DNA of 64,000 bases. Origin: Alphaproteobacteria bacterium (GTDB lineage Bacteria > Pseudomonadota > Alphaproteobacteria > Rs-D84). Where the stretch lies: positions 3,498 through 67,497 of the forward strand of contig JAFUTJ010000007.1 in assembly GCA_017471445.1 (NCBI GenBank), read 5' to 3'. Within the stretch, counting starts at the first letter, position 1. Every line of letters begins with the position of its first letter. This document shows positions 2,627 through 30,578 of the stretch, in pieces. Under the pieces are notes generated by a model. That model was not told the origin of the DNA. It did not search any database and saw only the letters and a list, made by a program, of their open reading frames with translations. The position numbers and the translations under genes were made by a program.

Positions 2627-5053
2627 ATGAAAAGACTTGTTGCAGTAATCAGTGGACTGTTGATTTTACCCGCTTTTGCAGAGGTTGCGCCGCTTTATTA
2701 CGATGCCGCCGAAACAGAATATATTGACGACGCAGACGTGGCCGACGTTGCAGACGACATGTTAAATTCGGATGTTGCGGATGAATCTGCACCTGCGATT
2801 GTGTCATCAAACGCGGCGACGCCGCGTACAACACGCGCAATTTCGCGCGTTGTGCCGACCGGTACGGCATCTGCAACGCAAAAATCCAATACATCACGCC
2901 GAACATCGGCAACCCGTGGTGTTACGTCACGCGTAACCGCGCGTACGGCGGCAACACGCGCAAATATCGCATCGCGCCCGGCGGCAACCAATGGTACCAC
3001 GGCGCGCACATCGTCACGCACAACAAATAATGGCACCGTTTCGACACGTAACACACCGGCATCGTCTGGCACACGTGCACGTGCATCAATTGTTCAGACG
3101 GACACCGTTAACACCAGTTTATATAACGGCACAGCCGGTCGGGTGGGATTGCGTACAAATGTTGGTGTTGCGTCGCGTGTACCAACAATTCGCGCGGCAA
3201 CTGCGGTTGCGACACCTGCGACAACGACGGTGGTAAATGCGGCCGATACCGCGGCAACAATGAACGAATTGGCCGAATTAACCGATTATTGCAAGGCGCA
3301 ATATACCGAATGCATGGACAATTTCTGTAACGTATTGGACGATAACCAGGGTCGGTGCAGTTGTTCTAAAAACCTGAAAAATTATGAAAAAACAGAAACC
3401 GCGTTAAAGGATGCAACGGCGGCATTGCAAGATGTTGCCGCACAAATTCAGTACATAGGCCTGAGTTCGAGCGAGGTTGAAACCCTGTTCGCCCAGACCG
3501 AAGCGGAATTAAAAATGTCCAATTCAACCGATAATTCCAAGATTAAAAATGATTTGGACAAGATTAAAAACATGATTGTTAATGTTAAATCTGGTACAAC
3601 GGGTGTATCGGATGCAAATACATTGGGAATTGACTTGTCCGGCCTGTTGGACTTTAACATCAGCAGTACTGGATTTGACCTGTCGTCGTTGTTTGGGGGC
3701 ACATCATCAAACACGTCCAGTATTACAAATCAACGTGGCGAAACGCTGTACAAGACGGCAACGGCCCGGTGCAAGGCATCTGTATTAAACACGTGCGCGA
3801 CCCAAGGTGTTGATATTTCAATTGTATCAAATGCATACGATATGGAAATTGACAAACAATGTATTGCGTATGAACGCAGTTTGACCGATGCAAATGACCA
3901 AATGTCGGCAACCGTGCGTAATGCAAAGACGGTTCTGCAAAAGGCGCGCCTGTTGGTGGCACAGAATAAAAATCAATATGACATGCGTGGTTGCATAAAC
4001 GCATTGGATGCGTGCATGCAAGATGACTATGTATGTGGTTCCGACTATGAAAACTGTCTAGACCCAACCGGCAAATATATCGTTAATGGCGCGGTGGTCA
4101 AGGGCAGTTTACCCGGCATCCCCGGCGGCGAATACGGCACGGCCGGTACGAATGGTGGTGTTTCGTCAAATGGCGGTGTGGCAATCATAAAGAATGGTGT
4201 CGGTTTTACAAATTCTGGACTGTATGCGACATGGGATTATGACAACACGTCAAAAAATGCATGGTCAAATGGTAACCTGGCAGATTATATTACCAGTACA
4301 ATTTCCAAAACGGCCAATTCGATTACAACACCGGCCAACATGACAGAATATCTGAAATCGAAAATCGGTTATGTTGATAAAGATAACAAGGTCCAGGGTA
4401 TGTGCGCATCGGTCCTGACCAAATGTCAAGATTACACGTATACCGGCACCGGCAACAGCCGCAAATACAACGATAGCAACGACGTTATTAAAAATTATCT
4501 GGAACGCGTTATGGTTCAGATCAAGGCAAAACAAGACGATGTTATTTCCGACTATGCCGAAGGTTGCATATCAGATGTTTCGTCGTGCCTGGCCCAGAAT
4601 AATTACAATTATTATTATTCTGCAACAACGTACAGTACGCTGACCAATTCTAACCCGTCGAACATCGCGATTCAGGCATGCATGTCTATAATCAACACAT
4701 GCAAAAGCGCGACAACGCCGTCGTCTGATGCATCAACGGTGTATCAATGGCTGGATTCCGCGCTGGGCACCACGCTGGACACCATCAAAGCCGCCTGTAC
4801 CGCAGCAAGCGATTCTAACGGTATTTATTTTCAAGGAACATGGTCAGACGGTGAATGCAAGTGCAAGACTGGTGGTACATACTATGATGCGGCGTCGTTC
4901 CGTTGCGTTAACAACTGCATGTATTCACCACAATACCCGAAAAATGTTACCTTGGGAAACGGTGACCGTAAATGTGGCGAATGTCCCGCTGGGGAAACCC
5001 CAACAAAGTCAGGAAGTGGTACACCGACGCAATATGAATGTAAAGCTTCATAA
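2627..5053 (+). CDS. large secreted cysteine-rich protein, family A (paralog of 16147..18393)
   Basis: Signal peptide MKRLVAVISGLLILPAFA with an AGGAAGGA SD. An acidic stretch is followed by a long Arg/Ser/Thr-rich low-complexity region. An ordered series of Cys motifs (CKAQYTECMDNFCNVLDDNQGRCSCS, DKQCIAYE, GCINALDACMQDDYVCGSDYENCLDPTGKY, GMCASVLTKCQDYTY) is shared with the paralog. Confidence 0.85.
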   Translation: MKRLVAVISGLLILPAFAEVAPLYYDAAETEYIDDADVADVADDMLNSDVADESAPAIVSSNAATPRTTRAISRVVPTGTASATQKSNTSRRTSATRGVTSRVTARTAATRANIASRPAATNGTTARTSSRTTNNGTVSTRNTPASSGTRARASIVQTDTVNTSLYNGTAGRVGLRTNVGVASRVPTIRAATAVATPATTTVVNAADTAATMNELAELTDYCKAQYTECMDNFCNVLDDNQGRCSCSKNLKNYEKTETALKDATAALQDVAAQIQYIGLSSSEVETLFAQTEAELKMSNSTDNSKIKNDLDKIKNMIVNVKSGTTGVSDANTLGIDLSGLLDFNISSTGFDLSSLFGGTSSNTSSITNQRGETLYKTATARCKASVLNTCATQGVDISIVSNAYDMEIDKQCIAYERSLTDANDQMSATVRNAKTVLQKARLLVAQNKNQYDMRGCINALDACMQDDYVCGSDYENCLDPTGKYIVNGAVVKGSLPGIPGGEYGTAGTNGGVSSNGGVAIIKNGVGFTNSGLYATWDYDNTSKNAWSNGNLADYITSTISKTANSITTPANMTEYLKSKIGYVDKDNKVQGMCASVLTKCQDYTYTGTGNSRKYNDSNDVIKNYLERVMVQIKAKQDDVISDYAEGCISDVSSCLAQNNYNYYYSATTYSTLTNSNPSNIAIQACMSIINTCKSATTPSSDASTVYQWLDSALGTTLDTIKAACTAASDSNGIYFQGTWSDGECKCKTGGTYYDAASFRCVNNCMYSPQYPKNVTLGNGDRKCGECPAGETPTKSGSGTPTQYECKAS

Positions 5054-7999: not shown

Positions 8000-8054
8000 C
8001 CAAAAATCATAAATCAGAAATCCGAAATCTACCAATCATCAAACCTGATTTATG
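8000..8054 (-). terminator. candidate terminator of ftsA-rpe ORF (10-bp perfect stem, large loop)
   Basis: CATAAATCAG (8008-8017) is the exact reverse complement of CTGATTTATG (8045-8054). On the minus-strand RNA the stem is followed by AUUUUUGG. The stem includes the stop codon. Confidence 0.45.
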
Positions 8055-9825
8055 CACTTGTTTTCCGCATCAGTCCACGTATGGCCAGGGGAAAATCATT
8101 TGCGCGTGCTAAATAAGACCCAGAAACCAGCAAATCGGCCCCAGCGTCCCAGCACATTTGTGCCGTTTTGTCATTTATTCCGCCATCAACAGATATTGTA
8201 AACCGCAACCCATACCGTTTGCGCGTCGCGGCCAGCACAGAAATTTTATGCAAACATTCGGGATTAAACGCCTGGCCGGCGGCACCGGGTGCAACGGTCA
8301 TAACCATAACTTCATCAACGTCGCGCAATACCGACTTTAATATTGAAACCGACGAATCCGGATGCAGTGCCACCCCAGCACGTACACCCGCCGCCCGAAT
8401 GTTATGCAGTGCGGTTCGCACCCCCGATGTGTTGGTTGAAACAATAATTGTATTTGCACCCGCGGCAATTGCGTCGTTTGCCCACACAACCGGCCCTTCG
8501 GTCATCAGGTGCACGTGCAGATGTGCGTCTGTGTGCGCGCGTATATATTTTAATTCATCAATCCCGCCGGCGATACGGTCGACATAGAATCCATCCATTA
8601 TATCAACGTGAACAATTGACACGCCACCAGATTGAAACAGTGAATATGTTTCATCACGCCGCATGTCAAAGCACAATGTGCTGGGCATAATGGGAATAAA
8701 TTCATTACGTTTACGGCGGCGGCGCGTAAATATGCCACGAATGCGCGACATATGTTTTTGCATGCGTTCACTGCGCGCGATATATGCGGCACGGTGTGCC
8801 CCTTCGGCCGCCCATATATATTCTGACAATGCACGTGTGGCCGCATCCGGCCCCATGTTTTCAACCGGTATTGCAAACATATTTTCAACCAGGTCCGCCA
8901 CACCGTCGCACCCACTTGCGCCGCCGGTAATGACAATACGCCGTGGTGCATATCGGCCAATTGCCGTCATTGCGGCGTTCTTTATTTGGCCAACAATATC
9001 AACAATGTTCGGTATCACAATATCGTTTATATCGCTGCGCGAAAAGTCATATGCCGTGTCCGCCGGGGTAAATCGGTCCATTTCTTTTGGAATCATGCTG
9101 GCCACGGTGCGCTTAATCCGTTCGGCATCGTCAAAACCGACATTCGTTTTTTCGGCAATTTCACGTGTGATGTTTGTTCCACCATGTGCATATTTATAGT
9201 GCCACACCGGTCCACGTTCGGACCAAATTGACACAGATGTAAATTCGGCACCAAAATCAATAATCATTTGCGTGCCATTTGCCGGGTATGATGCATTTAC
9301 TAAAAACATTGGGTCAAAGAACGCCGCCGGCTGAATATGCGCCCGTCGCAGGAATGCACCAATTTCATCCATACGTGATTGTTCATAAAAAATACCACCA
9401 AATACCGATGCCAATTTTCGTTCCACCACACCAATCGGCGTTGGCATATTTTTTGTCGTCGCCCCGTCATATCGCAATGGCACAATATGCATTGGGTAAA
9501 ATCCATCTGGCGGGGTTATTTGCGAAATCTGGGCCTTGATATCGGCGGGGGTAATTTTATGTTCGCCCGACCACAGTGTTTCGCGCCGCGTCATCGTAAA
9601 CCATGCGTTGCCAAAGTTCCCAGTAATATACGCCGTATCAAAGTGCGTGCCAATTTTATTTTCCAATTCATCAATTACCGACTTTAACGCGAAAACCGTA
9701 TCATAATTATCAACAGAATACATGGCCGATTTATCAATGCGCCCACTGCGCACGCGATGTGCAATGCCACGAACGCCGCTGGTTCCGATGTCCAGACACA
9801 AAAAAGATGAATCAAATAAATTCAT
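8050..9825 (-). CDS. ftsA: FtsA (cell-division actin homolog) fused in frame to ribulose-phosphate 3-epimerase
   Basis: The N-terminal ~375 aa are FtsA-like (LDIGTSGVRG..., ITGGASG...). They end in a basic amphipathic tail, IRGIFTRRRRKRNEF. After only IPI, an Rpe-like 212 aa follows from the ATG at 8688 (MPSTLCFD..VHVDIMDGFYV..HLHVHLM..VMTVAPGAAGQAF..ISVDGGIN..GADLLVSGSYL). The start at 9825 lies 1 nt after the ftsQ stop. Confidence 0.85.
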   Translation of the reverse strand: MNLFDSSFLCLDIGTSGVRGIAHRVRSGRIDKSAMYSVDNYDTVFALKSVIDELENKIGTHFDTAYITGNFGNAWFTMTRRETLWSGEHKITPADIKAQISQITPPDGFYPMHIVPLRYDGATTKNMPTPIGVVERKLASVFGGIFYEQSRMDEIGAFLRRAHIQPAAFFDPMFLVNASYPANGTQMIIDFGAEFTSVSIWSERGPVWHYKYAHGGTNITREIAEKTNVGFDDAERIKRTVASMIPKEMDRFTPADTAYDFSRSDINDIVIPNIVDIVGQIKNAAMTAIGRYAPRRIVITGGASGCDGVADLVENMFAIPVENMGPDAATRALSEYIWAAEGAHRAAYIARSERMQKHMSRIRGIFTRRRRKRNEFIPIMPSTLCFDMRRDETYSLFQSGGVSIVHVDIMDGFYVDRIAGGIDELKYIRAHTDAHLHVHLMTEGPVVWANDAIAAGANTIIVSTNTSGVRTALHNIRAAGVRAGVALHPDSSVSILKSVLRDVDEVMVMTVAPGAAGQAFNPECLHKISVLAATRKRYGLRFTISVDGGINDKTAQMCWDAGADLLVSGSYLARANDFPLAIRGLMRKTSA

Positions 9826-9826
9826 T

Positions 9827-10507
9827 TTAACGCACCAATATTCGCGCACTGTCGCGCATATCAATTACATTAATGTTTTTTGATAAAATCTTGTGATTTT
9901 GGTTCATTATTACCAACGCACCAATTGCCGCGGTTGGGTCATCTTCGGGTAACATAACGGTTATGCCGCCGGTTGTTGTCATGTTCCAACGCCGGTTTTC
10001 AATCCATTCCAGATAGTCAACATCGCCGGCCATACCGTGTGCCGCATTGGTTATTTCGGTTATATCGTCGGGAACATTTCCGCGGAATAATACCGCACCA
10101 TTATCACGAACATCGGTCGGGCGATTTACAATTGTGCCATCGGCCGACAATGGAAAGAAACTTTCGCCGTCGGTCCATTGTGCAACCGCACGATATAACT
10201 TTACCCGCACCGCCAGATTGCCATTTGGCATGCGTCGTACAGACGATTGCCGCACACCCGGCACCGCCGCCACACGTGCATTTACATCACGCAGTGCCAC
10301 CGAATACGTATGTGCACCCGGCGCAACGGTTGCCGCCGCCGCCAAGGCCGATAAATCTTTGTCATTAACATCCGCCGAAATTGATATATTGCGAACGCGC
10401 GCAACATCACCATGACCCAAGAATACCATAACAATGCGCACGGAAAAATACACCGCCAAAACAATGGCAAATATAAAATATAACCAAAACCGAACTGTAT
10501 GCTTCAT
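9827..10507 (-). CDS. ftsQ: cell division protein FtsQ
   Basis: One N-terminal TM helix, a POTRA-like region (VRNISI...) and an FtsQ-type C-terminal part. It sits immediately upstream of ftsA. Confidence 0.8.
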   Translation of the reverse strand: MKHTVRFWLYFIFAIVLAVYFSVRIVMVFLGHGDVARVRNISISADVNDKDLSALAAAATVAPGAHTYSVALRDVNARVAAVPGVRQSSVRRMPNGNLAVRVKLYRAVAQWTDGESFFPLSADGTIVNRPTDVRDNGAVLFRGNVPDDITEITNAAHGMAGDVDYLEWIENRRWNMTTTGGITVMLPEDDPTAAIGALVIMNQNHKILSKNINVIDMRDSARILVR

Positions 10508-10621
10508 ACCGTGTATTATATCATATACAAGCCGCGTCCGCTATATTTTGTTGAATTTTAACCATGGCAAAAACACGCGAATAAAAAAATACACCCCAAT
10601 TAAGTAAATAGATATTGTTCA

Positions 10622-10828
10622 CTAATTTGTTGGTACCAATTTTCCGCCGATGTCGCGTGTGGCGTTAATCCAACATGTTGCGCCATTACGCGGAACCGCC
10701 ATGGCGTATTTGGTGTGCTTTTCCGCATATATATTTATACCGTTCATTGCGGTTTCACCAATCCGGCACAGTGGCAAACACCGGTCGTCGGATGTGTGAC
10801 CGAACCCATCATCACATTCCCATGGGCA
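10622..10828 (-). repeat. conserved 3' cassette of family-B genes (copy 1)
   Basis: It shares long identical nucleotide runs with 29407-29613 (e.g. ccatggcgtatttggt, ccaatccggcacagtgg, cggtcgtcggatgtgtgacc, attcccatgggcaat). By manual count, 62 of 68 encoded residues are identical. Confidence 0.85.
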
Positions 10829-11446
10829 ATCGTTCGCATCAACAATTGTACCATCCACACTGTCTGGTGTGCCGGGGCCGGTATAGTGTGCATTTGCGGG
10901 TGCATTGGTGCATGGTTTAAACGCGTTATACGAGCTACTGCTCTGTCCATGATGTTGCGACAGATAATACCCAGCGTATGCCTTTGTATATAAACACGCA
11001 CTGTAATCGGCATAAGCCCCAACAGATTCCGAATAATAGAAACTTAGTGCATTTATTCTTGCTTCATCGCCATTAATACCACGAATAACAATGCCACACT
11101 TTTCGATATTTTTAGCGTTATAGGTGTGAGTAAACCATTCTGTAGAAACCATAACGGTCATTTCACTGTAATATGGGTTGGTAAGTAAAACATACGGCGA
11201 TATCATGTTTATAAGTTCTTGCCGGGTCATGTTAATTTCGGGACACGCATATTGCGCATCATCACCCGGACAATAATATGCCTCAGAACAGGCCGCGCAT
11301 TCACCGTTGTTCAACCAATACCCGGCGTTACATTGTGCGGCGCGGGCCGTGCCGACACCGCCAATCGTAATCAGTGCACAAATTGCTAACGCCAAATCAA
11401 CCGCACGGCAACGCATAATCGATTGAATATAAAAAAACAGATTCAT
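10622..11446 (-). CDS. secreted cysteine-rich protein, family B (paralog of 29407..30162)
   Basis: AGAGGGA SD before the ATG at 11446. Signal-like N-terminus ending GTARA. It has a CNAGYWLNNGECAACSEAYYCPGDD module and a C-terminal 68 aa nearly identical to the paralog. Confidence 0.8.
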   Translation of the reverse strand: MNLFFYIQSIMRCRAVDLALAICALITIGGVGTARAAQCNAGYWLNNGECAACSEAYYCPGDDAQYACPEINMTRQELINMISPYVLLTNPYYSEMTVMVSTEWFTHTYNAKNIEKCGIVIRGINGDEARINALSFYYSESVGAYADYSACLYTKAYAGYYLSQHHGQSSSSYNAFKPCTNAPANAHYTGPGTPDSVDGTIVDANDCPWECDDGFGHTSDDRCLPLCRIGETAMNGINIYAEKHTKYAMAVPRNGATCWINATRDIGGKLVPTN

Positions 11447-11462
11447 ATGTTTCCCTCTTAAT

Positions 11463-11657
11463 AAAAAAAATCCCTGCGCGAAATTGCAGTGGTTGGAGGT
11501 TAAGAACTATAAATGTAGAAAATAGTGTGCTTATTCAATATATTCGCAACCCTCCAACCCTGGGGATGGGTTGGACGCATGGCATTCATATACAATGCCG
11601 ATTAATCTACATTTATACGGGTTCTTACACCCCGACAACAATGCAACGCATTACGTC
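11463..11657 (-). promoter_or_regulatory. structured leader RNA upstream of family-B gene 10622..11446 (candidate attenuator)
   Basis: It follows TTGTCT-N17-TAAACT (11692-11664). Nested inverted repeats are 11501-11519 with 11606-11628 (12-bp perfect core tataaatgtaga/tctacatttata). GGGUUGGAGG can pair either with upstream CCAACCC or with downstream CCUCCAACC. It ends in a weak hairpin plus U8, directly before the SD. Confidence 0.4.
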
Positions 11658-11692
11658 AGGTAAAGTTTAAATCAAATAACAAACAAAGACAA

Positions 11693-11723
11693 GTTGAAAA
11701 AAATCGCCCGTTTGGGCGATTTT
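11693..11723 (-). terminator. intrinsic terminator after rpsD
   Basis: ATCGCCC-loop-GGGCGAT, followed on the minus strand by a T7 run. Confidence 0.75.
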
Positions 11724-12356
11724 TTAACGCGAATAGAATTCGACGACCAATTCCGGTGACATTTGAACCGGGTATGGCACTTCATCAAATGCCGGTACAC
11801 GGGTAAATGTTGCGGTAAAGTTCGCACTGTCCACGCTGACATAATCTGCGAATGCGCGTTCGGCGGATTCCAGTGCCAAAACGACCAACGGCATCTGTTT
11901 TGCCTTGTCGCTGACCGTGATAACATCGCCCGGCTTTACACGATATGATGCGATTTTTACGCGCTTGCCATTGACATAGATGTGACCATGGCTGACCAAT
12001 TGACGGGCCGAAAATACCGTCGGTGCCAATTTTGCACGGTATACAACTGCGTCCAAACGACGTTCCAACAAGCCAATCAAGTTATCTGGGGTGTCACCCT
12101 TCATATTGTCTGCTTCCAGATAATATGCACGGAACTTCTTTTCGCCGATGTTGCCATAATATCCCTTTAACGTCTGTTTGGCGCGCATCTGTTTTGCATA
12201 GTCAGAAGAATTGCCACCGCGTGACGTTGGACCATGCTGGCCCGGTTTGTATTTACGTTTGTTAAATGGCGATTTCGCCTGACCCCACAGGTTTACACCC
12301 AACGAACGGCCGATTTTTAATTTGCGTGTGCTGCGCTTTGCGCCTGCCCTTGCCAT
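11724..12356 (-). CDS. rpsD: 30S ribosomal protein S4
   Basis: [25 protein letters not shown]... and the S4 domain ([34 protein letters not shown]). Confidence 0.95.
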
Positions 12357-29406: not shown

Positions 29407-29613
29407 CTAATTAACCGGCACCAATTTACCGCCATTGTCGCGTTTGGCATTAATCCAACACGTTGCGCCATTACGTGGTACGGCCATGGCGTATTTGGTA
29501 TGCTTTTCGGCATATATATTTATTCCATTCATTGCGGTGTCGCCAATCCGGCACAGTGGTAAACATCGGTCGTCGGATGTGTGACCATACCCCGCGTCGC
29601 ATTCCCATGGGCA
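29407..29613 (-). repeat. conserved 3' cassette of family-B genes (copy 2)
   Basis: See 10622-10828. Confidence 0.85.
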
Positions 29614-30162
29614 ATTATTTTCACCAATCACGCCACCGGTATAGTGCGCATTTGTCGGCGCATTCGTGCATTTATTCGCCAATTTATAAAGTTTGGCCCC
29701 TGACCAGGCCTCATCTTGTAACCATATGCCAACACCCGGTAATATATAATATTGCAAAGTAAATTTCGTATATAACCCCGTTTGCGTTTCATAGTTCAGA
29801 AATGCATATACCTTATTCCCATCTTTGTCATATGCGCCTGAACCTGTATACAACCCCATACCACAGTTGGTTATCGTGTATGGATATGTTTCTTGTTCGC
29901 GGGATGTACAAGCCGCACTATAAATACTTTGCAGACCAGATAATTCCAACACATCTTGGATTGTTTGGGTGAATAATGGACAATGTATTTTGGTGTCATC
30001 ACCGGGACAATAATTACATGCCGGACACCCAACGCATTTGCCCGCGTCATCCAAATAATATCCCGCATTACACGTTGCAGCGCGGGCCGCGCCAAAACAA
30101 AGCACAAAGAACAAACTGCAAAGTACAATTGGCAATTTGCACGTATGCCGTGCATGCAACAT
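29407..30162 (-). CDS. secreted cysteine-rich protein, family B (paralog of 10622..11446)
   Basis: Start chosen at MLHARHTCKLPIVLCSLFFVLCFGAARA (signal peptide) by analogy with the paralog. The track ORF extends to 30291. It has a CNAGYYLDDAGKCVGCPACNYCPGDD module, and the C-terminal 68 aa are nearly identical to the paralog. Confidence 0.8.
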   Translation of the reverse strand: MLHARHTCKLPIVLCSLFFVLCFGAARAATCNAGYYLDDAGKCVGCPACNYCPGDDTKIHCPLFTQTIQDVLELSGLQSIYSAACTSREQETYPYTITNCGMGLYTGSGAYDKDGNKVYAFLNYETQTGLYTKFTLQYYILPGVGIWLQDEAWSGAKLYKLANKCTNAPTNAHYTGGVIGENNCPWECDAGYGHTSDDRCLPLCRIGDTAMNGINIYAEKHTKYAMAVPRNGATCWINAKRDNGGKLVPVN

Positions 30163-30315
30163 TTTACTATGAATTGCCGCGCATTGTCCGTCCTTGTCAC
30201 ACCGGTACGTTCGCGCGTGCCCGCGGTATGACGACGGTTTGGAACGCCGTGTCTTGTTCCAAAGAATTAGAAATATGAATTCGTAAAGCATAATATGTCC
30301 CCATTTGATTTATTA

Positions 30316-30542
30316 AATTAAAAACACCGCAAATAAATCGCGGTCGGGGTGTTGAGAAATCATACGTTTTAATGACTCTTGTAATCTTTTGCAATATATG
30401 CATTATAACCACAAGCACCCCAACCAACATTGGGGAATAAAACACACGGTGCAAAATTGTGAATTTCTGTGGAATCACGATGACTTTCGCACCGAAAACG
30501 TAAAGGCTTCTCACAGCCCCGAACCCAATTCCCATTGGATTC
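30316..30542 (-). ncRNA. candidate structured RNA, copy X (leader of family-B gene or stand-alone sRNA), homologous to 62815-63036
   Basis: Collinear conserved blocks are shared with copy Y: GAAUCCAA, AUUGGGUUCGGGGCU, UUCGGUGCGAAAG, CAUCGU, GGUUAUAA, CCCCGACC. It starts about 8 nt after TATAAT and ends in ACCGC-loop-GCGGU plus GUUUUUAAUUU. Confidence 0.55.
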
Positions 30543-30549
30543 GATATCC

Positions 30550-30578
30550 ATTATACTTTATTTGTGCGACAAAGACAA
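30550..30578 (-). promoter_or_regulatory. candidate promoter of RNA copy X
   Basis: The minus strand reads TTGTCT-N17-TATAAT, immediately downstream of the rpmH terminator. Confidence 0.5.

What the first reader, a model, noticed from the sequence alone, without database searches (positions are those of the whole stretch)
10622..11446. Family B: two Cys-rich secreted paralogs with a nearly identical 3' cassette and divergent bodies (mosaic pattern)
Genes 10622..11446 and 29407..30162 share three features.

- A signal peptide.
- An N-terminal C-x-AGY(W/Y)L-x4-C-x2-C-x4-YCPGDD module, which resembles furin/ephrin-receptor-like Cys-rich repeats.
- A C-terminal 68-aa block from CPWECD to the end, identical at 62 of 68 positions by manual count. 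Long identical nucleotide runs occur across 10622-10828 and 29407-29613.

The central ~110-130 residues are essentially unalignable by eye. Sharp conservation of one end with a hypervariable middle is what I would expect from gene conversion or cassette exchange, or from strong diversifying selection on an exposed domain attached to a conserved anchoring or export domain.
Basis: partly seen in the sequence, partly recalled or inferred. Interest (0 to 1): 0.6.

Follow-up and report, generated by a model that had tools for sequence, protein, structure and literature searches.

The report
Cysteine-rich exported family with shared tail
The two genes are members of a family of about 45 cysteine-rich exported proteins in a tiny-genome gut bacterium; their bodies vary freely, while one C-terminal tail is kept almost identical in every copy by strong selection plus DNA exchange between copies.

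Summary
Genes 10622-11446 and 29407-30162 (both minus strand) share a signal peptide, an N-terminal Cys module and a 68-aa C-terminal block identical at 62 of 68 residues. The middles are barely alignable.

They are not a pair. The 0.91-Mb assembly holds 47 family ORFs (3.8% of the DNA), 35 with complete tails, and 28 of 46 contig ends fall in or next to one.

At the nucleotide level the A/B block is only 86.5% identical, with a longest identical run of 20 nt. Twenty-one of 28 differences are at third codon positions (dS 0.70, dN 0.05). So there was no recent A-B conversion, and the protein is strongly constrained.

Across the family the tail has its own reticulate history:
- Recombination tests are positive.
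- Tail divergence is uncoupled from body divergence.
- Near-identical bodies carry different leaders, linkers and tails.
- The tail is species-specific, although one body lineage is shared with another species.

This is concerted evolution of the 3' segment.

The tail is this species' version of an uncurated C-terminal module that ends proteins of about 60 to 3,000 aa in related gut Alphaproteobacteria. I infer a shared docking or export module carrying variable heads; this function is untested.

The parts
10622..11446 (-). Gene A, 274 aa (P0001): exported Cys-rich family member
   Evidence: ORF listed. The identical protein lies on 4 public contigs in the same rpsD-geneA-ftsQ context.
11339..11446 (-). 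Gene A signal peptide (residues 1-36, cleavage after ARA)
   Evidence: Read from the translation. All 24 full-length paralogs align from the A-x-A site.
11240..11332 (-). Gene A N-module, a TNFR / ephrin-receptor-like Cys-rich repeat (C39-P69)
   Evidence: Foldseek gives local matches to the EphA2/EphA4 Cys-rich domain (CRD) and to OX40: probability 0.8-0.9, rmsd 1.3-1.7 A over 35 aa. Pfam gives only sub-threshold hits.
10916..11239 (-). Gene A variable middle (residues 70-177); one helix plus a beta-sheet domain in the model
   Evidence: AlphaFold2 model m84fad3188bd5, pLDDT 94. pN is 0.62 and pS is saturated against gene B. No PDB or BFVD fold match at E<=1e-3.
10829..10912 (-). Gene A CTNAPANAHYTG motif plus variable linker (residues 179-206)
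   Evidence: Conserved across the wider family and in other species. The linker comes in several length variants.
10625..10828 (-). Gene A conserved C-terminal block ('tail'), 68 aa; stop codon at 10622-10624
   Evidence: 35 complete copies in the genome at 84-96% aa identity. dN/dS is about 0.1. Homology ends at the stop codon.
11447..11692 (-). Gene A upstream region: promoter-like TTGTCT-N17-TAAACT after the rpsD terminator, about 195-nt leader, U-tract, RBS
   Evidence: Read from the sequence. A 12-bp inverted repeat pairs 11508-11519 with 11606-11617. No Rfam family matches.
29407..30291 (-).
   Evidence: ORF. A GGGGA motif precedes the 30291 ATG. The 294-aa form is P0019 in public data.
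29977..30072 (-). Gene B N-module (Cys-rich repeat)
   Evidence: Weak Pfam hit to TNFR_ELAPOR1_6th, E=0.006 and 16.9 bits, below the 33.2-bit cut-off. Aligned.
29671..29976 (-). Gene B variable middle
   Evidence: Nucleotide identity to gene A is 0.30-0.42. No close paralog body exists in the genome.
29410..29613 (-). Gene B conserved C-terminal block, 68 aa; stop codon at 29407-29409
   Evidence: 62 of 68 aa and 86.5% of nucleotides are identical to gene A's block.
30292..30578 (-). Gene B upstream region: promoter-like TTGTCT-N17-TATAAT after the rpmH terminator, structured leader with a terminator-like hairpin (30326-30344)
   Evidence: An earlier scan note (e1-2799292) describes it as a two-state leader RNA; I did not re-test that here.

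Best explanation
Genes A and B are two of about 45 members of a lineage-expanded family of Sec-exported, disulfide-rich proteins. The host is a gut alphaproteobacterium with a genome of about 0.9 Mb, probably Candidatus Enterousia (order Rs-D84).

**Shown: protein build.** Each protein has five parts:
1. a signal peptide;
2. a TNFR / ephrin-receptor-like Cys-rich repeat;
3. a variable helix-plus-beta-sheet 'head';
4. a second Cys-rich element (CTNAPANAHYTG…CPWEC…C-x3-C);
5. a small beta-rich C-terminal tail.

**Shown: evolution.**
- The tail is under very strong purifying selection (dN/dS about 0.1; 0.01-0.06 in its core).
- Its history is uncoupled from that of the bodies. Short tracts are exchanged between copies (gene conversion), and whole 5' and 3' segments have been recombined onto different bodies.
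- All copies in this genome therefore carry one species-specific tail, while body lineages are older than the species.
- Heads of recent duplicates evolve with pN/pS about 1.

**Inferred: function.** The tail, with the Cys-rich element before it, is a common docking, anchoring or export module. It must fit a single shared partner in the cell envelope. Concerted evolution keeps all copies compatible with that partner. The heads are the exposed, diversifying parts: a repertoire of surface or secreted binding proteins for a partner-dependent bacterium.

The exchange is slow and evolutionary. It is not a fast programmed switch.
For: **Family size**
- 57 tblastn matches and 47 ORFs, 24 of them full length; 35 complete tails.
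- The family takes 3.8% of the assembly, and 28 of 46 contig ends lie at a member.

**Selection**
- Tail: median pS 0.475 and dN 0.08. For A/B, dS is 0.70 and dN 0.049.
- 55 of the 88 variable tail sites are third codon positions.
- In the 8-gene subfamily, pN/pS is 1.11 (0.81-1.52) in the hypervariable middle and 0.12 (0.06-0.20) in the tail.

**Recombination**
- PHI test: 0 of 2000 permutations reached the observed value. 77% of informative site pairs are incompatible.
- GENECONV-like run test: 44 pairs at p<0.01, against 4.65 expected.
- Spearman correlation of body divergence with tail pS is -0.03.
- C19_184203m and C21_38039p have bodies with pS 0.07 but different leader, signal peptide and linker, and a tail pS of 0.51.

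**Concerted evolution**
- Tail aa identity is 0.87 within this genome, 0.56 within genome G045 and 0.25 between them.
- The 'long' body type of both genomes forms one clade (support 99/98), and the AU test rejects monophyly of this genome's bodies (p=0.023).
- No tail above 42% identity was found in 40 related genomes.

**Module character of the tail**
- It ends proteins of about 60 to 3,067 aa in the genus, and of up to 1,986 aa in public protein data.

**Fold and export context**
- The AlphaFold2 model has pLDDT 93.8.
- 21 of 24 mature proteins have an even number of Cys, between 12 and 20.
- A DsbA-family gene and a secretin/TcpQ gene pair are present.
Against: - The function is not tested. 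No expression, localisation or partner data exist, and only assembled contigs were available, no raw reads or RNA runs.
- No tail partner has been identified.
- DsbB and VKOR were not found in the 88%-complete assembly, so the route to disulfide formation is incomplete.
- pN/pS in the head is not significantly above 1. Relaxed constraint would explain it as well as diversifying selection.
- pS in the unalignable middles is unreliable. The contrast rests on the well-anchored N-module.
- The cross-species test uses one other genome and gives a moderate AU p-value (0.023).
- The one apparent strain-level exchange is L064, which has the body of one copy and a tail 204/204 identical to another copy. 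It is a 995-nt metagenomic contig and may be an assembly chimera.
Confidence: 0.6

Rival explanations
1. Birth-and-death evolution with purifying selection only. The family expanded by duplication, the tail stays alike only because the protein is constrained, and no DNA is exchanged between copies.
For: - dN/dS is about 0.1 in the tail, and most differences are synonymous.
- No two tails are identical; the highest nucleotide identity is 94.6%.
- A and B show no long shared tract.
Against: - The PHI and run tests are strongly positive.
- Tail pS is capped near 0.45-0.5 while N-module pS is saturated.
- Tail divergence is uncorrelated with body divergence, and it exceeds body divergence in recent duplicates.
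- The tail is species-specific while a body clade spans two species.
Confidence: 0.1
2. A programmed antigenic-variation system of the msp2/p44, pilE/pilS or vlsE type. Silent cassettes are copied at high frequency into one expression site, using the conserved 3' block as the recombination anchor.
For: - Conserved flanks surround a hypervariable middle.
- Two 5'-truncated tail-only copies exist (G000:C21:26517-26810 and C22:158-376).
- Gene A shares a significantly long tract with one of them.
- Contig L064 carries a body from one copy and a tail from another.
Against: - 24 copies are full length, each with its own start, signal peptide and upstream promoter-like/leader region.
- Only 2 truncated copies were found, and they carry the constant part, not variable cassettes.
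- Gene A is identical on 4 contigs, and the unique parts of A and B are identical in 4 runs.
- Tail dS of about 0.7 implies old, rare exchange.
- L064 may be a chimera.
Confidence: 0.07
3. One recent burst of duplication from a single ancestor in this species. Very fast positive selection then erased similarity in the bodies, and the tail simply keeps the ancestral sequence.
For: - The tail version is unique to this species.
- Copy number here (48 matches) far exceeds that in other species of the genus, which have 0-19.
- pN/pS is about 1 in the heads of recent duplicates.
Against: - Synonymous sites of the well-aligned N-module are saturated (pS 0.72) while the tail's are not.
- The 'long' body type is shared with G045 at 99/98 support, and the AU test rejects a single origin of this genome's bodies.
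- The gene-A body type occurs with a foreign tail in P0025.
Confidence: 0.1
4. The tail is not an anchor or export signal but an assembly domain. Paralogs co-assemble through it into mixed oligomers or fibres, and that is why all tails must stay compatible.
For: - The evolutionary pattern is the same as for a docking module: one tail, many heads.
- The tail is beta-rich.
- It also ends very long repeat proteins, which may be fibrous.
- Foldseek gives weak, non-significant hits to viral fibre proteins.
Against:
- The tail also occurs on small proteins of 60-150 aa, which fits a tag as well as an assembly unit.
Confidence: 0.15
5. The conserved 3' block is kept for a nucleic-acid function, such as an RNA structure, a recombination site or an antisense ORF, rather than for the protein.
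For: Antisense ORFs overlap both blocks (10675-10920 and 29463-29762, plus strand).
Against: - 21 of the 28 A/B differences, and 55 of the 88 variable sites in the family, are third positions of the sense frame, with dN/dS about 0.1.
- Conservation starts and stops with the coding sequence.
- Homologous tails in other species keep the protein pattern, not the DNA.
Confidence: 0.02

Closest known systems
Concerted evolution of the 3' segments of Helicobacter pylori babA/babB and homA/homB outer-membrane adhesin paralogs (Pride & Blaser 2002, as reviewed in PMC3960876)
   Same: - The 3' segments are more alike within a genome than between genomes, while other segments group across genomes.
- Intragenomic recombination makes chimeric paralogs.
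- The products are exported proteins of a host-associated bacterium.
   Different: - This family has about 45 copies instead of 2-3.
- The proteins are soluble-looking, disulfide-rich, multi-domain proteins, not Hop-family beta-barrels.
- The comparison here is between species, not strains.
- The exchange looks old (tail dS about 0.7).
Giardia variant-specific surface proteins (VSPs)
   Same: - A large family of Cys-rich (CxxC, TNFR/furin-like repeat) exported proteins in a gut organism.
- A variable ectodomain is joined to a highly conserved C-terminal end.
   Different: - Giardia is a eukaryote. Its VSP tail is a transmembrane helix plus the CRGKA motif.
- The tail here has no hydrophobic helix.
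- One-at-a-time expression is not shown here.
- This comparison rests on my own knowledge of VSPs and was not tested.
Anaplasma Msp2/P44, Neisseria pilE/pilS and Borrelia vlsE segmental gene-conversion systems
   Same: - A hypervariable region is bounded by conserved sequence that can guide recombination.
- Anaplasma is also a small-genome alphaproteobacterium.
   Different: - Those systems have one expression site and many promoterless partial cassettes, and they switch fast.
- Here nearly all copies are complete genes with their own upstream regions, and the alleles are stable across samples.
Shared C-terminal targeting or docking modules: dockerins of cellulosomal proteins and T9SS C-terminal domains of Bacteroidota
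   Same: - One module of about 60-80 aa sits at the extreme C-terminus of dozens of otherwise different secreted proteins of one organism.
- The module has species-specific sequence.
   Different: - There is no sequence or fold match to either.
- The module here contains Cys.
- No partner (cohesin-like protein or secretion machine) has been identified.
Ephrin_rec_like / GCC2_GCC3 (PF07699) and TNFR-type Cys-rich repeats
   Same: - The N-module superposes on the EphA2/EphA4 Cys-rich domain and on OX40 (35 aa, rmsd 1.3-1.7 A, 28-43% identity).
- A long relative, P0054, passes the Pfam cut-off (38.4 bits against 23.1).
   Different: - Genes A and B do not reach any Pfam cut-off.
- Only about 35 of 238 mature residues are covered.
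- The head and tail have no known relatives.

Membership tests
Ephrin_rec_like / TNFR-type Cys-rich repeat (PF07699, PF23091) | Profile HMM score above the curated cut-off | tested here: not met
   Gene A has no hit. Gene B hits PF23091 at 16.9 bits, below the 33.2-bit cut-off. The relative P0054 passes PF07699 at 38.4 bits against 23.1.
Ephrin_rec_like / TNFR-type Cys-rich repeat (PF07699, PF23091) | Disulfide-braced two-hairpin fold that superposes on solved Cys-rich domains | tested here: met
   Foldseek gives local matches to EphA2/EphA4 and OX40: probability 0.8-0.9, rmsd 1.3-1.7 A over 34-35 aa. The E-values are not significant because the stretch is short.
Concerted evolution of 3' gene segments (H. 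pylori bab/hom type) | The 3' segment is more similar within a genome than between genomes, while the rest of the gene groups across genomes | tested here: met
   Tail aa identity is 0.87 within G000 and 0.25 between G000 and G045. One body clade spans both genomes at 99/98 support, with AU p=0.023.
Concerted evolution of 3' gene segments (H. pylori bab/hom type) | Statistical signal of recombination inside the homogenised segment | tested here: met
   PHI test: 0 of 2000 permutations reached the observed value. Run test: 44 pairs at p<0.01 against 4.65 expected.
Concerted evolution of 3' gene segments (H. pylori bab/hom type) | The protein is a Hop/Hom-type outer-membrane beta-barrel | tested here: not met
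   The AlphaFold2 model shows Cys-rich repeats plus small beta domains and no barrel. No Pfam OMP family matches.
Segmental gene-conversion antigenic variation (msp2/p44, pilE/pilS, vlsE) | One expression site plus many promoterless partial donor cassettes | tested here: not met
   24 copies are full length with a start codon, a signal peptide and their own upstream regions. Only 2 copies are truncated, and both hold just the tail.
Segmental gene-conversion antigenic variation (msp2/p44, pilE/pilS, vlsE) | Frequent switching seen within a population | not testable with these tools
   Only Logan contigs of 4 runs from one study were available. The unique parts of A and B are invariant in them. 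L064 is ambiguous.
Known C-terminal sorting or docking domains (T9SS CTD, dockerin, autotransporter, PEP-CTERM and others) | Sequence membership in a curated model | tested here: not met
   There are no Pfam-A or NCBIfam hits to the tail in A, B or 10 relatives. There is no PDB sequence hit.
Known C-terminal sorting or docking domains (T9SS CTD, dockerin, autotransporter, PEP-CTERM and others) | The module lies at the extreme C-terminus of many proteins of different size and build | tested here: met
   The tail ends proteins of 62-3,067 aa in the genus, and of up to 1,986 aa in public data.
Known C-terminal sorting or docking domains (T9SS CTD, dockerin, autotransporter, PEP-CTERM and others) | A cognate receptor or secretion machine is present | not tested
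   I only noted a secretin/TcpQ gene pair and a DsbA-family gene. Nothing links them to the family.
Giardia VSP-like coat proteins | A conserved C-terminal transmembrane anchor with a short cytoplasmic motif | tested here: not met
   The tail sequence has no hydrophobic helix, and the model shows beta strands.

The most novel reading that the evidence does not exclude
The tail, together with the CTNAP/CPWEC element before it, is a previously unrecognised docking or export module of small-genome gut Alphaproteobacteria. It would be a functional counterpart of dockerins or T9SS C-terminal domains. Gene conversion keeps it uniform across 35 or more genes of one genome, so that one envelope device can display a repertoire of more than 20 interchangeable, disulfide-rich heads of a fold with no solved relative. 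That would amount to a bacterial VSP-like variable coat, used by a partner-dependent bacterium to bind, or to evade, its host, its partner cells or phages.
Probability: 0.3. Interest if true: 0.8.

Novelty: new variant of a known kind. Interest (0 to 1): 0.62.

Why it matters
Bacteria of order Rs-D84 / Ca. Enterousia are widespread in animal guts. Their genomes are under 1 Mb and lack most biosynthesis, and they are thought to live off other cells (PMC12306168). Nothing is known about how they interact with those cells.

A family that takes nearly 4% of such a genome, is exported, and combines freely varying heads with one fixed tail is the obvious candidate for the contact surface of this lifestyle.

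The family also gives a clean natural example of concerted evolution confined to one domain across dozens of paralogs. Its protein has two domains (head and tail) with no relatives in the Pfam-A copy searched, NCBIfam or the PDB. Because the tail marks a whole set of envelope proteins in the lineage, it could serve as a handle to find their common partner.

Tried and rejected
**Searches that found nothing**
- Pfam-A and NCBIfam scans of A, B and relatives gave nothing above cut-off for the head or tail.
- PF26010 is precomputed for some long members but is not in the local Pfam copy, so I could not name it.
- A profile search against PDB sequences gave 0 hits.
- Foldseek of both models against the PDB and of the better model against BFVD gave no hit at E<=1e-3. 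Only the 35-aa N-module matched locally.
- The first AlphaFold2 run used paralogs only and left the tail at pLDDT below 50, because the tail has no variation within the genome. Adding other species' homologues fixed this.
- A search for gene A's body type in 80 genomes of the genus found none. The only foreign example is P0025, on a 1.3-kb contig.

**Data that could not settle the question**
- Only Logan contigs of 4 runs from one study, all the same strain, were served. They cannot show rare recombinants, nor decide whether L064 is real.
- No RNA runs were found, so expression is unknown.

**Ideas rejected**
- Invertible promoter near A or B: no suitable inverted repeats.
- Rfam family in gene A's leader: none.
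- Integron-cassette idea: there is no conserved sequence after the stop codon.
- Lipoprotein idea: the residue before the first Cys is Q or T, which is not a lipobox.
Full report
**1. The observation**

Both ORFs are present on the minus strand at the stated coordinates. BLASTP gives 46% identity overall (E = 1e-72).

Both proteins have an A-x-A signal peptidase site followed by C-x-AGY(W/Y)L…C-x2-C…YCPGDD…CP.

A sliding window of nucleotide identity between the two genes is a step function:

| Region | Nucleotide identity |
|---|---|
| Upstream | about 0.3 |
| N-module | 0.55-0.67 |
| Middle | 0.30-0.42 |
| CTNAP motif | 0.62 |
| 3' block | 0.87-0.90 |
| After the stop codon | 0.4 |

Three corrections are needed:
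- The 207-nt block has 28 differences (86.5% identity), 21 of them at third codon positions. Its longest identical run is 20 nt. The 'cassette' is nearly identical as protein, not as DNA.
- Gene B more likely starts at the ATG at 30291. A GGGGA motif precedes it, and public data call the gene as a 294-aa protein, P0019.
- The two genes are not a pair (section 2).

**2. A very large family**

The window is contig C18:3498-67497 of a 910,822-bp, 23-contig assembly that is 88% complete. A tblastn search with gene A gives 57 matches.

A phmmer scan of all stop-to-stop ORFs finds 47 family ORFs:
- 24 are full length, with signal peptide, N-module and tail.
- 35 have complete tails, and 31 of these tails are exactly 68 aa.
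- Two are 5'-truncated, tail-only remnants (G000:C21:26517-26810 and C22:158-376).

The ORFs cover 34.7 kb, or 3.8% of the assembly. Twenty-eight of 46 contig ends lie in or within 1.2 kb of a member, so the true copy number is probably higher.

Mature proteins are 216-299 aa long with 12-20 Cys, and the Cys count is even in 21 of 24.

I re-derived everything used here.

**3. Where the conservation lies, and what kind it is**

Pairwise nucleotide identity over 35 copies, anchored at the stop codon, is 0.84-0.94 across most of the block and 0.71-0.78 in its last 75 nt. It falls to the random level (0.27-0.30) just after the stop. The conserved unit therefore ends with the coding sequence.

Of the 88 variable sites in the 204-nt block, 55 are third codon positions.

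Nei-Gojobori estimates for all pairs of the 24 full-length genes:

| Region | pS | pN or dN |
|---|---|---|
| Tail | 0.475 (dS 0.75) | dN 0.08 |
| CTNAP-linker | 0.55 | not computed |
| N-module | 0.72 | pN 0.34 |
| Middle | 0.73 | pN 0.61 |

For A against B, the tail has dS 0.70 and dN 0.049, while pS is 0.79 in the N-module and 0.76 in the middle (saturated).

It is not: it is lower. It is also far from zero, so there was no recent A-B exchange, and the protein is under strong purifying selection.

**4. The tail has its own, reticulate history**

- *PHI test.* On 31 tails, none of 2000 permutations reached the observed value at three window sizes. 77% of informative site pairs are incompatible. 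The variable-site matrix shows short haplotype blocks in different combinations.
- *GENECONV-like test.* A test on the longest shared run gives 44 pairs at p<0.01 against 4.65 expected. The mean longest run is 11.1, against 8.5 ± 0.3 in permutations. Gene A shares significant tracts with the C22 remnant and with C21_38038.
- *Uncoupling.* Tail divergence is unrelated to body divergence (Spearman -0.03).
- *Direct mosaics.* C19_184203m and C21_38039p have almost identical bodies (pS 0.07; nucleotide identity 0.82-0.98). They have unrelated upstream regions and signal peptides, different linkers, and tails with pS 0.51. The 'NCPANFYLN' body type occurs behind at least two different leader and signal-peptide types.
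- *Recent duplicates.* In the 8-gene subfamily, tail pS (0.46) exceeds body pS (0.28-0.32).

The tails therefore behave as a pool with bounded synonymous diversity that is reshuffled among genes.

**5. Concerted evolution across species**

The tail sequence of this genome is found nowhere else:
- 40 related genomes give only 35-42% identical matches.
- In the 5.8-billion-protein collection, every protein with this tail also matches a gene of this genome: 29 of 32 at 98% identity or more (most at 100%), and the other three at 80%, 91% and about 99% over the part assembled here.

Homologues from other species keep the same architecture, including PCTNAPANAHYTGPGTPD…DANDCPWECDxGYG. Their tails differ and are about 10 aa longer (…C.PLC.AG.T.lH.G……lY..K.TsPal.v…..CYg.L..G….aiNv.y.G..YH..n).

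Genome G045 is a wild-mouse gut alphaproteobacterial MAG of the same genus, with 19 matches. I fetched 15 of its loci.
- Median tail aa identity is 0.87 within this genome, 0.56 within G045 and 0.25 between them.
- In a tree of the bodies, the 'long' type of both genomes forms one clade (support 99/98). The AU test rejects monophyly of this genome's bodies (p = 0.023).
- P0025, from another metagenome, has a gene-A-type body with a foreign tail.

Body lineages are therefore older than the species, whereas the tail is species-specific. This is the signature of concerted evolution of the 3' segment, as described for H. pylori babA/babB and homA/homB (PMC3960876).

**6. Selection on the head**

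In the best-sampled subfamily (8 genes), pN/pS with bootstrap intervals is:

| Region | pN/pS | 95% interval |
|---|---|---|
| N-module | 0.46 | 0.25-0.83 |
| Hypervariable 60 codons | 1.11 | 0.81-1.52 |
| CTNAP-linker | 0.17 | 0.04-0.41 |
| Tail | 0.12 | 0.06-0.20 |

In 20-codon windows, pN/pS falls to 0.01-0.06 in the tail core.

The head evolves about ten times faster at the protein level than the tail. The data do not separate diversifying selection from relaxed constraint.

**7. What the protein is**

With only paralogs in the alignment, the AlphaFold2 model was poor in the tail. With 48 sequences including other species, the model has pLDDT 93.8 and pTM 0.82. In order, it shows:
- two hairpins (the N-module);
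- a helix;
- a beta-sheet domain (the variable head);
- a second hairpin element (CPWEC);
- a small beta-rich tail.

Foldseek against the PDB and BFVD finds nothing at E<=1e-3. Only the 35-residue N-module superposes, on the EphA2/EphA4 Cys-rich domains and on TNFR-type repeats (probability 0.8-0.9, rmsd 1.3-1.7 A).

Pfam-A, NCBIfam and PDB sequence searches give nothing for the head or tail. A long relative passes Ephrin_rec_like.

The exhaustive search of 1.84 billion representative proteins finds 126 relatives. In many of them the CTNAP…tail module sits at the extreme C-terminus of proteins of 130-1,986 aa. Within the genus, the last 60 aa or so end ORFs of 62-3,067 aa. The tail is thus a common C-terminal module of many envelope or secreted proteins of this lineage.

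**8. Organism and context**

Named relatives carrying the family are uncultured gut Alphaproteobacteria and 'Candidatus Enterousia sp.' MAGs. Earlier notes of this scan name the genome as Ca. Enterousia. This lineage has genomes under 1 Mb, lacks most biosynthesis, and is thought to depend on other cells (PMC12306168). I found no paper that mentions this family.

The genome has a DsbA-family gene and a secretin plus TcpQ-like gene pair. No DsbB or VKOR was detected.

Gene A lies between the rpsD terminator and ftsQ, and gene B lies after rpmH. Each has its own promoter-like site and a leader of about 200 nt ending in a hairpin and U-tract.

In eight other species of the genus, rpsD is followed by different genes, mostly a trpS-like gene. 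It is never followed by ftsQ or a family member. Gene A therefore sits at a lineage-specific rearrangement junction.

Gene A is identical on four public contigs in the same context. The unique parts of A and B are invariant in four runs of one study.

**9. Ongoing exchange?**

L064 is a 995-nt contig from another sample. It matches copy C18_145m with one mismatch over 750 nt, but its tail is 204/204 identical to that of another copy, C6:1-624. This is either a real recombinant allele or an assembly chimera at a repeat. With only contigs available I cannot tell which.

**10. Reading**

*Shown:*
- a family of about 45 members;
- strong purifying selection on the tail;
- recombination within the tail, and between the tail or leader and the bodies;
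- a species-specific tail on trans-species body lineages;
- fast-evolving heads;
- a tail that is a widespread, uncurated C-terminal module.

*Inferred:* the tail is a shared docking, anchoring or export (or assembly) module that must fit one partner, and the heads are the exposed, variable working parts.

*Not supported:* a fast, programmed cassette switch, and a recent conversion between genes A and B.

The kind of evolution is known (bab/hom, and more loosely VSPs and msp2). The protein family, its scale in so small a genome, and the tail module appear undescribed.

Noticed in passing
window 9827-12356; loci L089-L096: Gene A sits at a lineage-specific synteny break. In 8 other species of the genus, rpsD is followed by a trpS-like gene plus a SIMPL/DUF541-like gene (in one species by a 935-aa secreted ORF), never by ftsQ or a family gene. 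Dispersed family copies may drive rearrangements.
   Followed up: partly
window 8050-9864 (-): The ftsA ORF is fused to a ribulose-phosphate 3-epimerase domain. Public data call it as one 599-aa gene carrying both the FtsA and Ribul_P_3_epim Pfam families.
   Followed up: no
G000:C10:2079-3530 (-) and 3545-4672 (+): This is a second family with a variable body and a fixed tail. Two divergently transcribed Cys-rich secreted proteins share a near-identical C-terminus of about 70 aa that contains a hydrophobic, TM-like stretch (…SIAGVVLGTTGALVTSHIV…GDEFTVGIR).
   Followed up: no
G000:C10:11133-13700 (-); G000:C12:2149-2625 (+): A lipoprotein-type secretin (551 aa) lies next to a TcpQ-like gene. 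A DsbA-family ORF lies 1.2 kb from a family member. No DsbB or VKOR was detected in the 88%-complete assembly, so how 12-20 Cys per protein are oxidised is unexplained.
   Followed up: partly
G000:C21:26517-26810 and G000:C22:158-376: Two 5'-truncated, tail-only copies of the family with no start codon or signal peptide. Gene A shares a significantly long identical tract with the C22 copy.
   Followed up: partly
L064 (ENA ERZ28653759, 995-nt contig): This contig has the body of copy C18_145m (1 mismatch in 750 nt) joined to a tail 204/204 identical to that of copy C6:1-624. It is either a recombinant allele in another sample or an assembly chimera.
   Followed up: partly
window 11662-11692 and 30550-30578 (-): Both family genes follow a ribosomal-protein gene terminator (rpsD, rpmH) and a promoter-like site that begins with the same string, TTGTCTTTGT. 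Their leaders are otherwise unrelated in sequence.
   Followed up: no
G045 loci L047-L060: In the related genome G045, the family genes share a conserved upstream stretch and start (stop-to-stop frame reads …LCLIQRDSFF…KNPGFLRQIFPPTMPKKTVGF…). Some 'long' members there lack the CTNAP/CPWEC element yet keep the species' tail.
   Followed up: no
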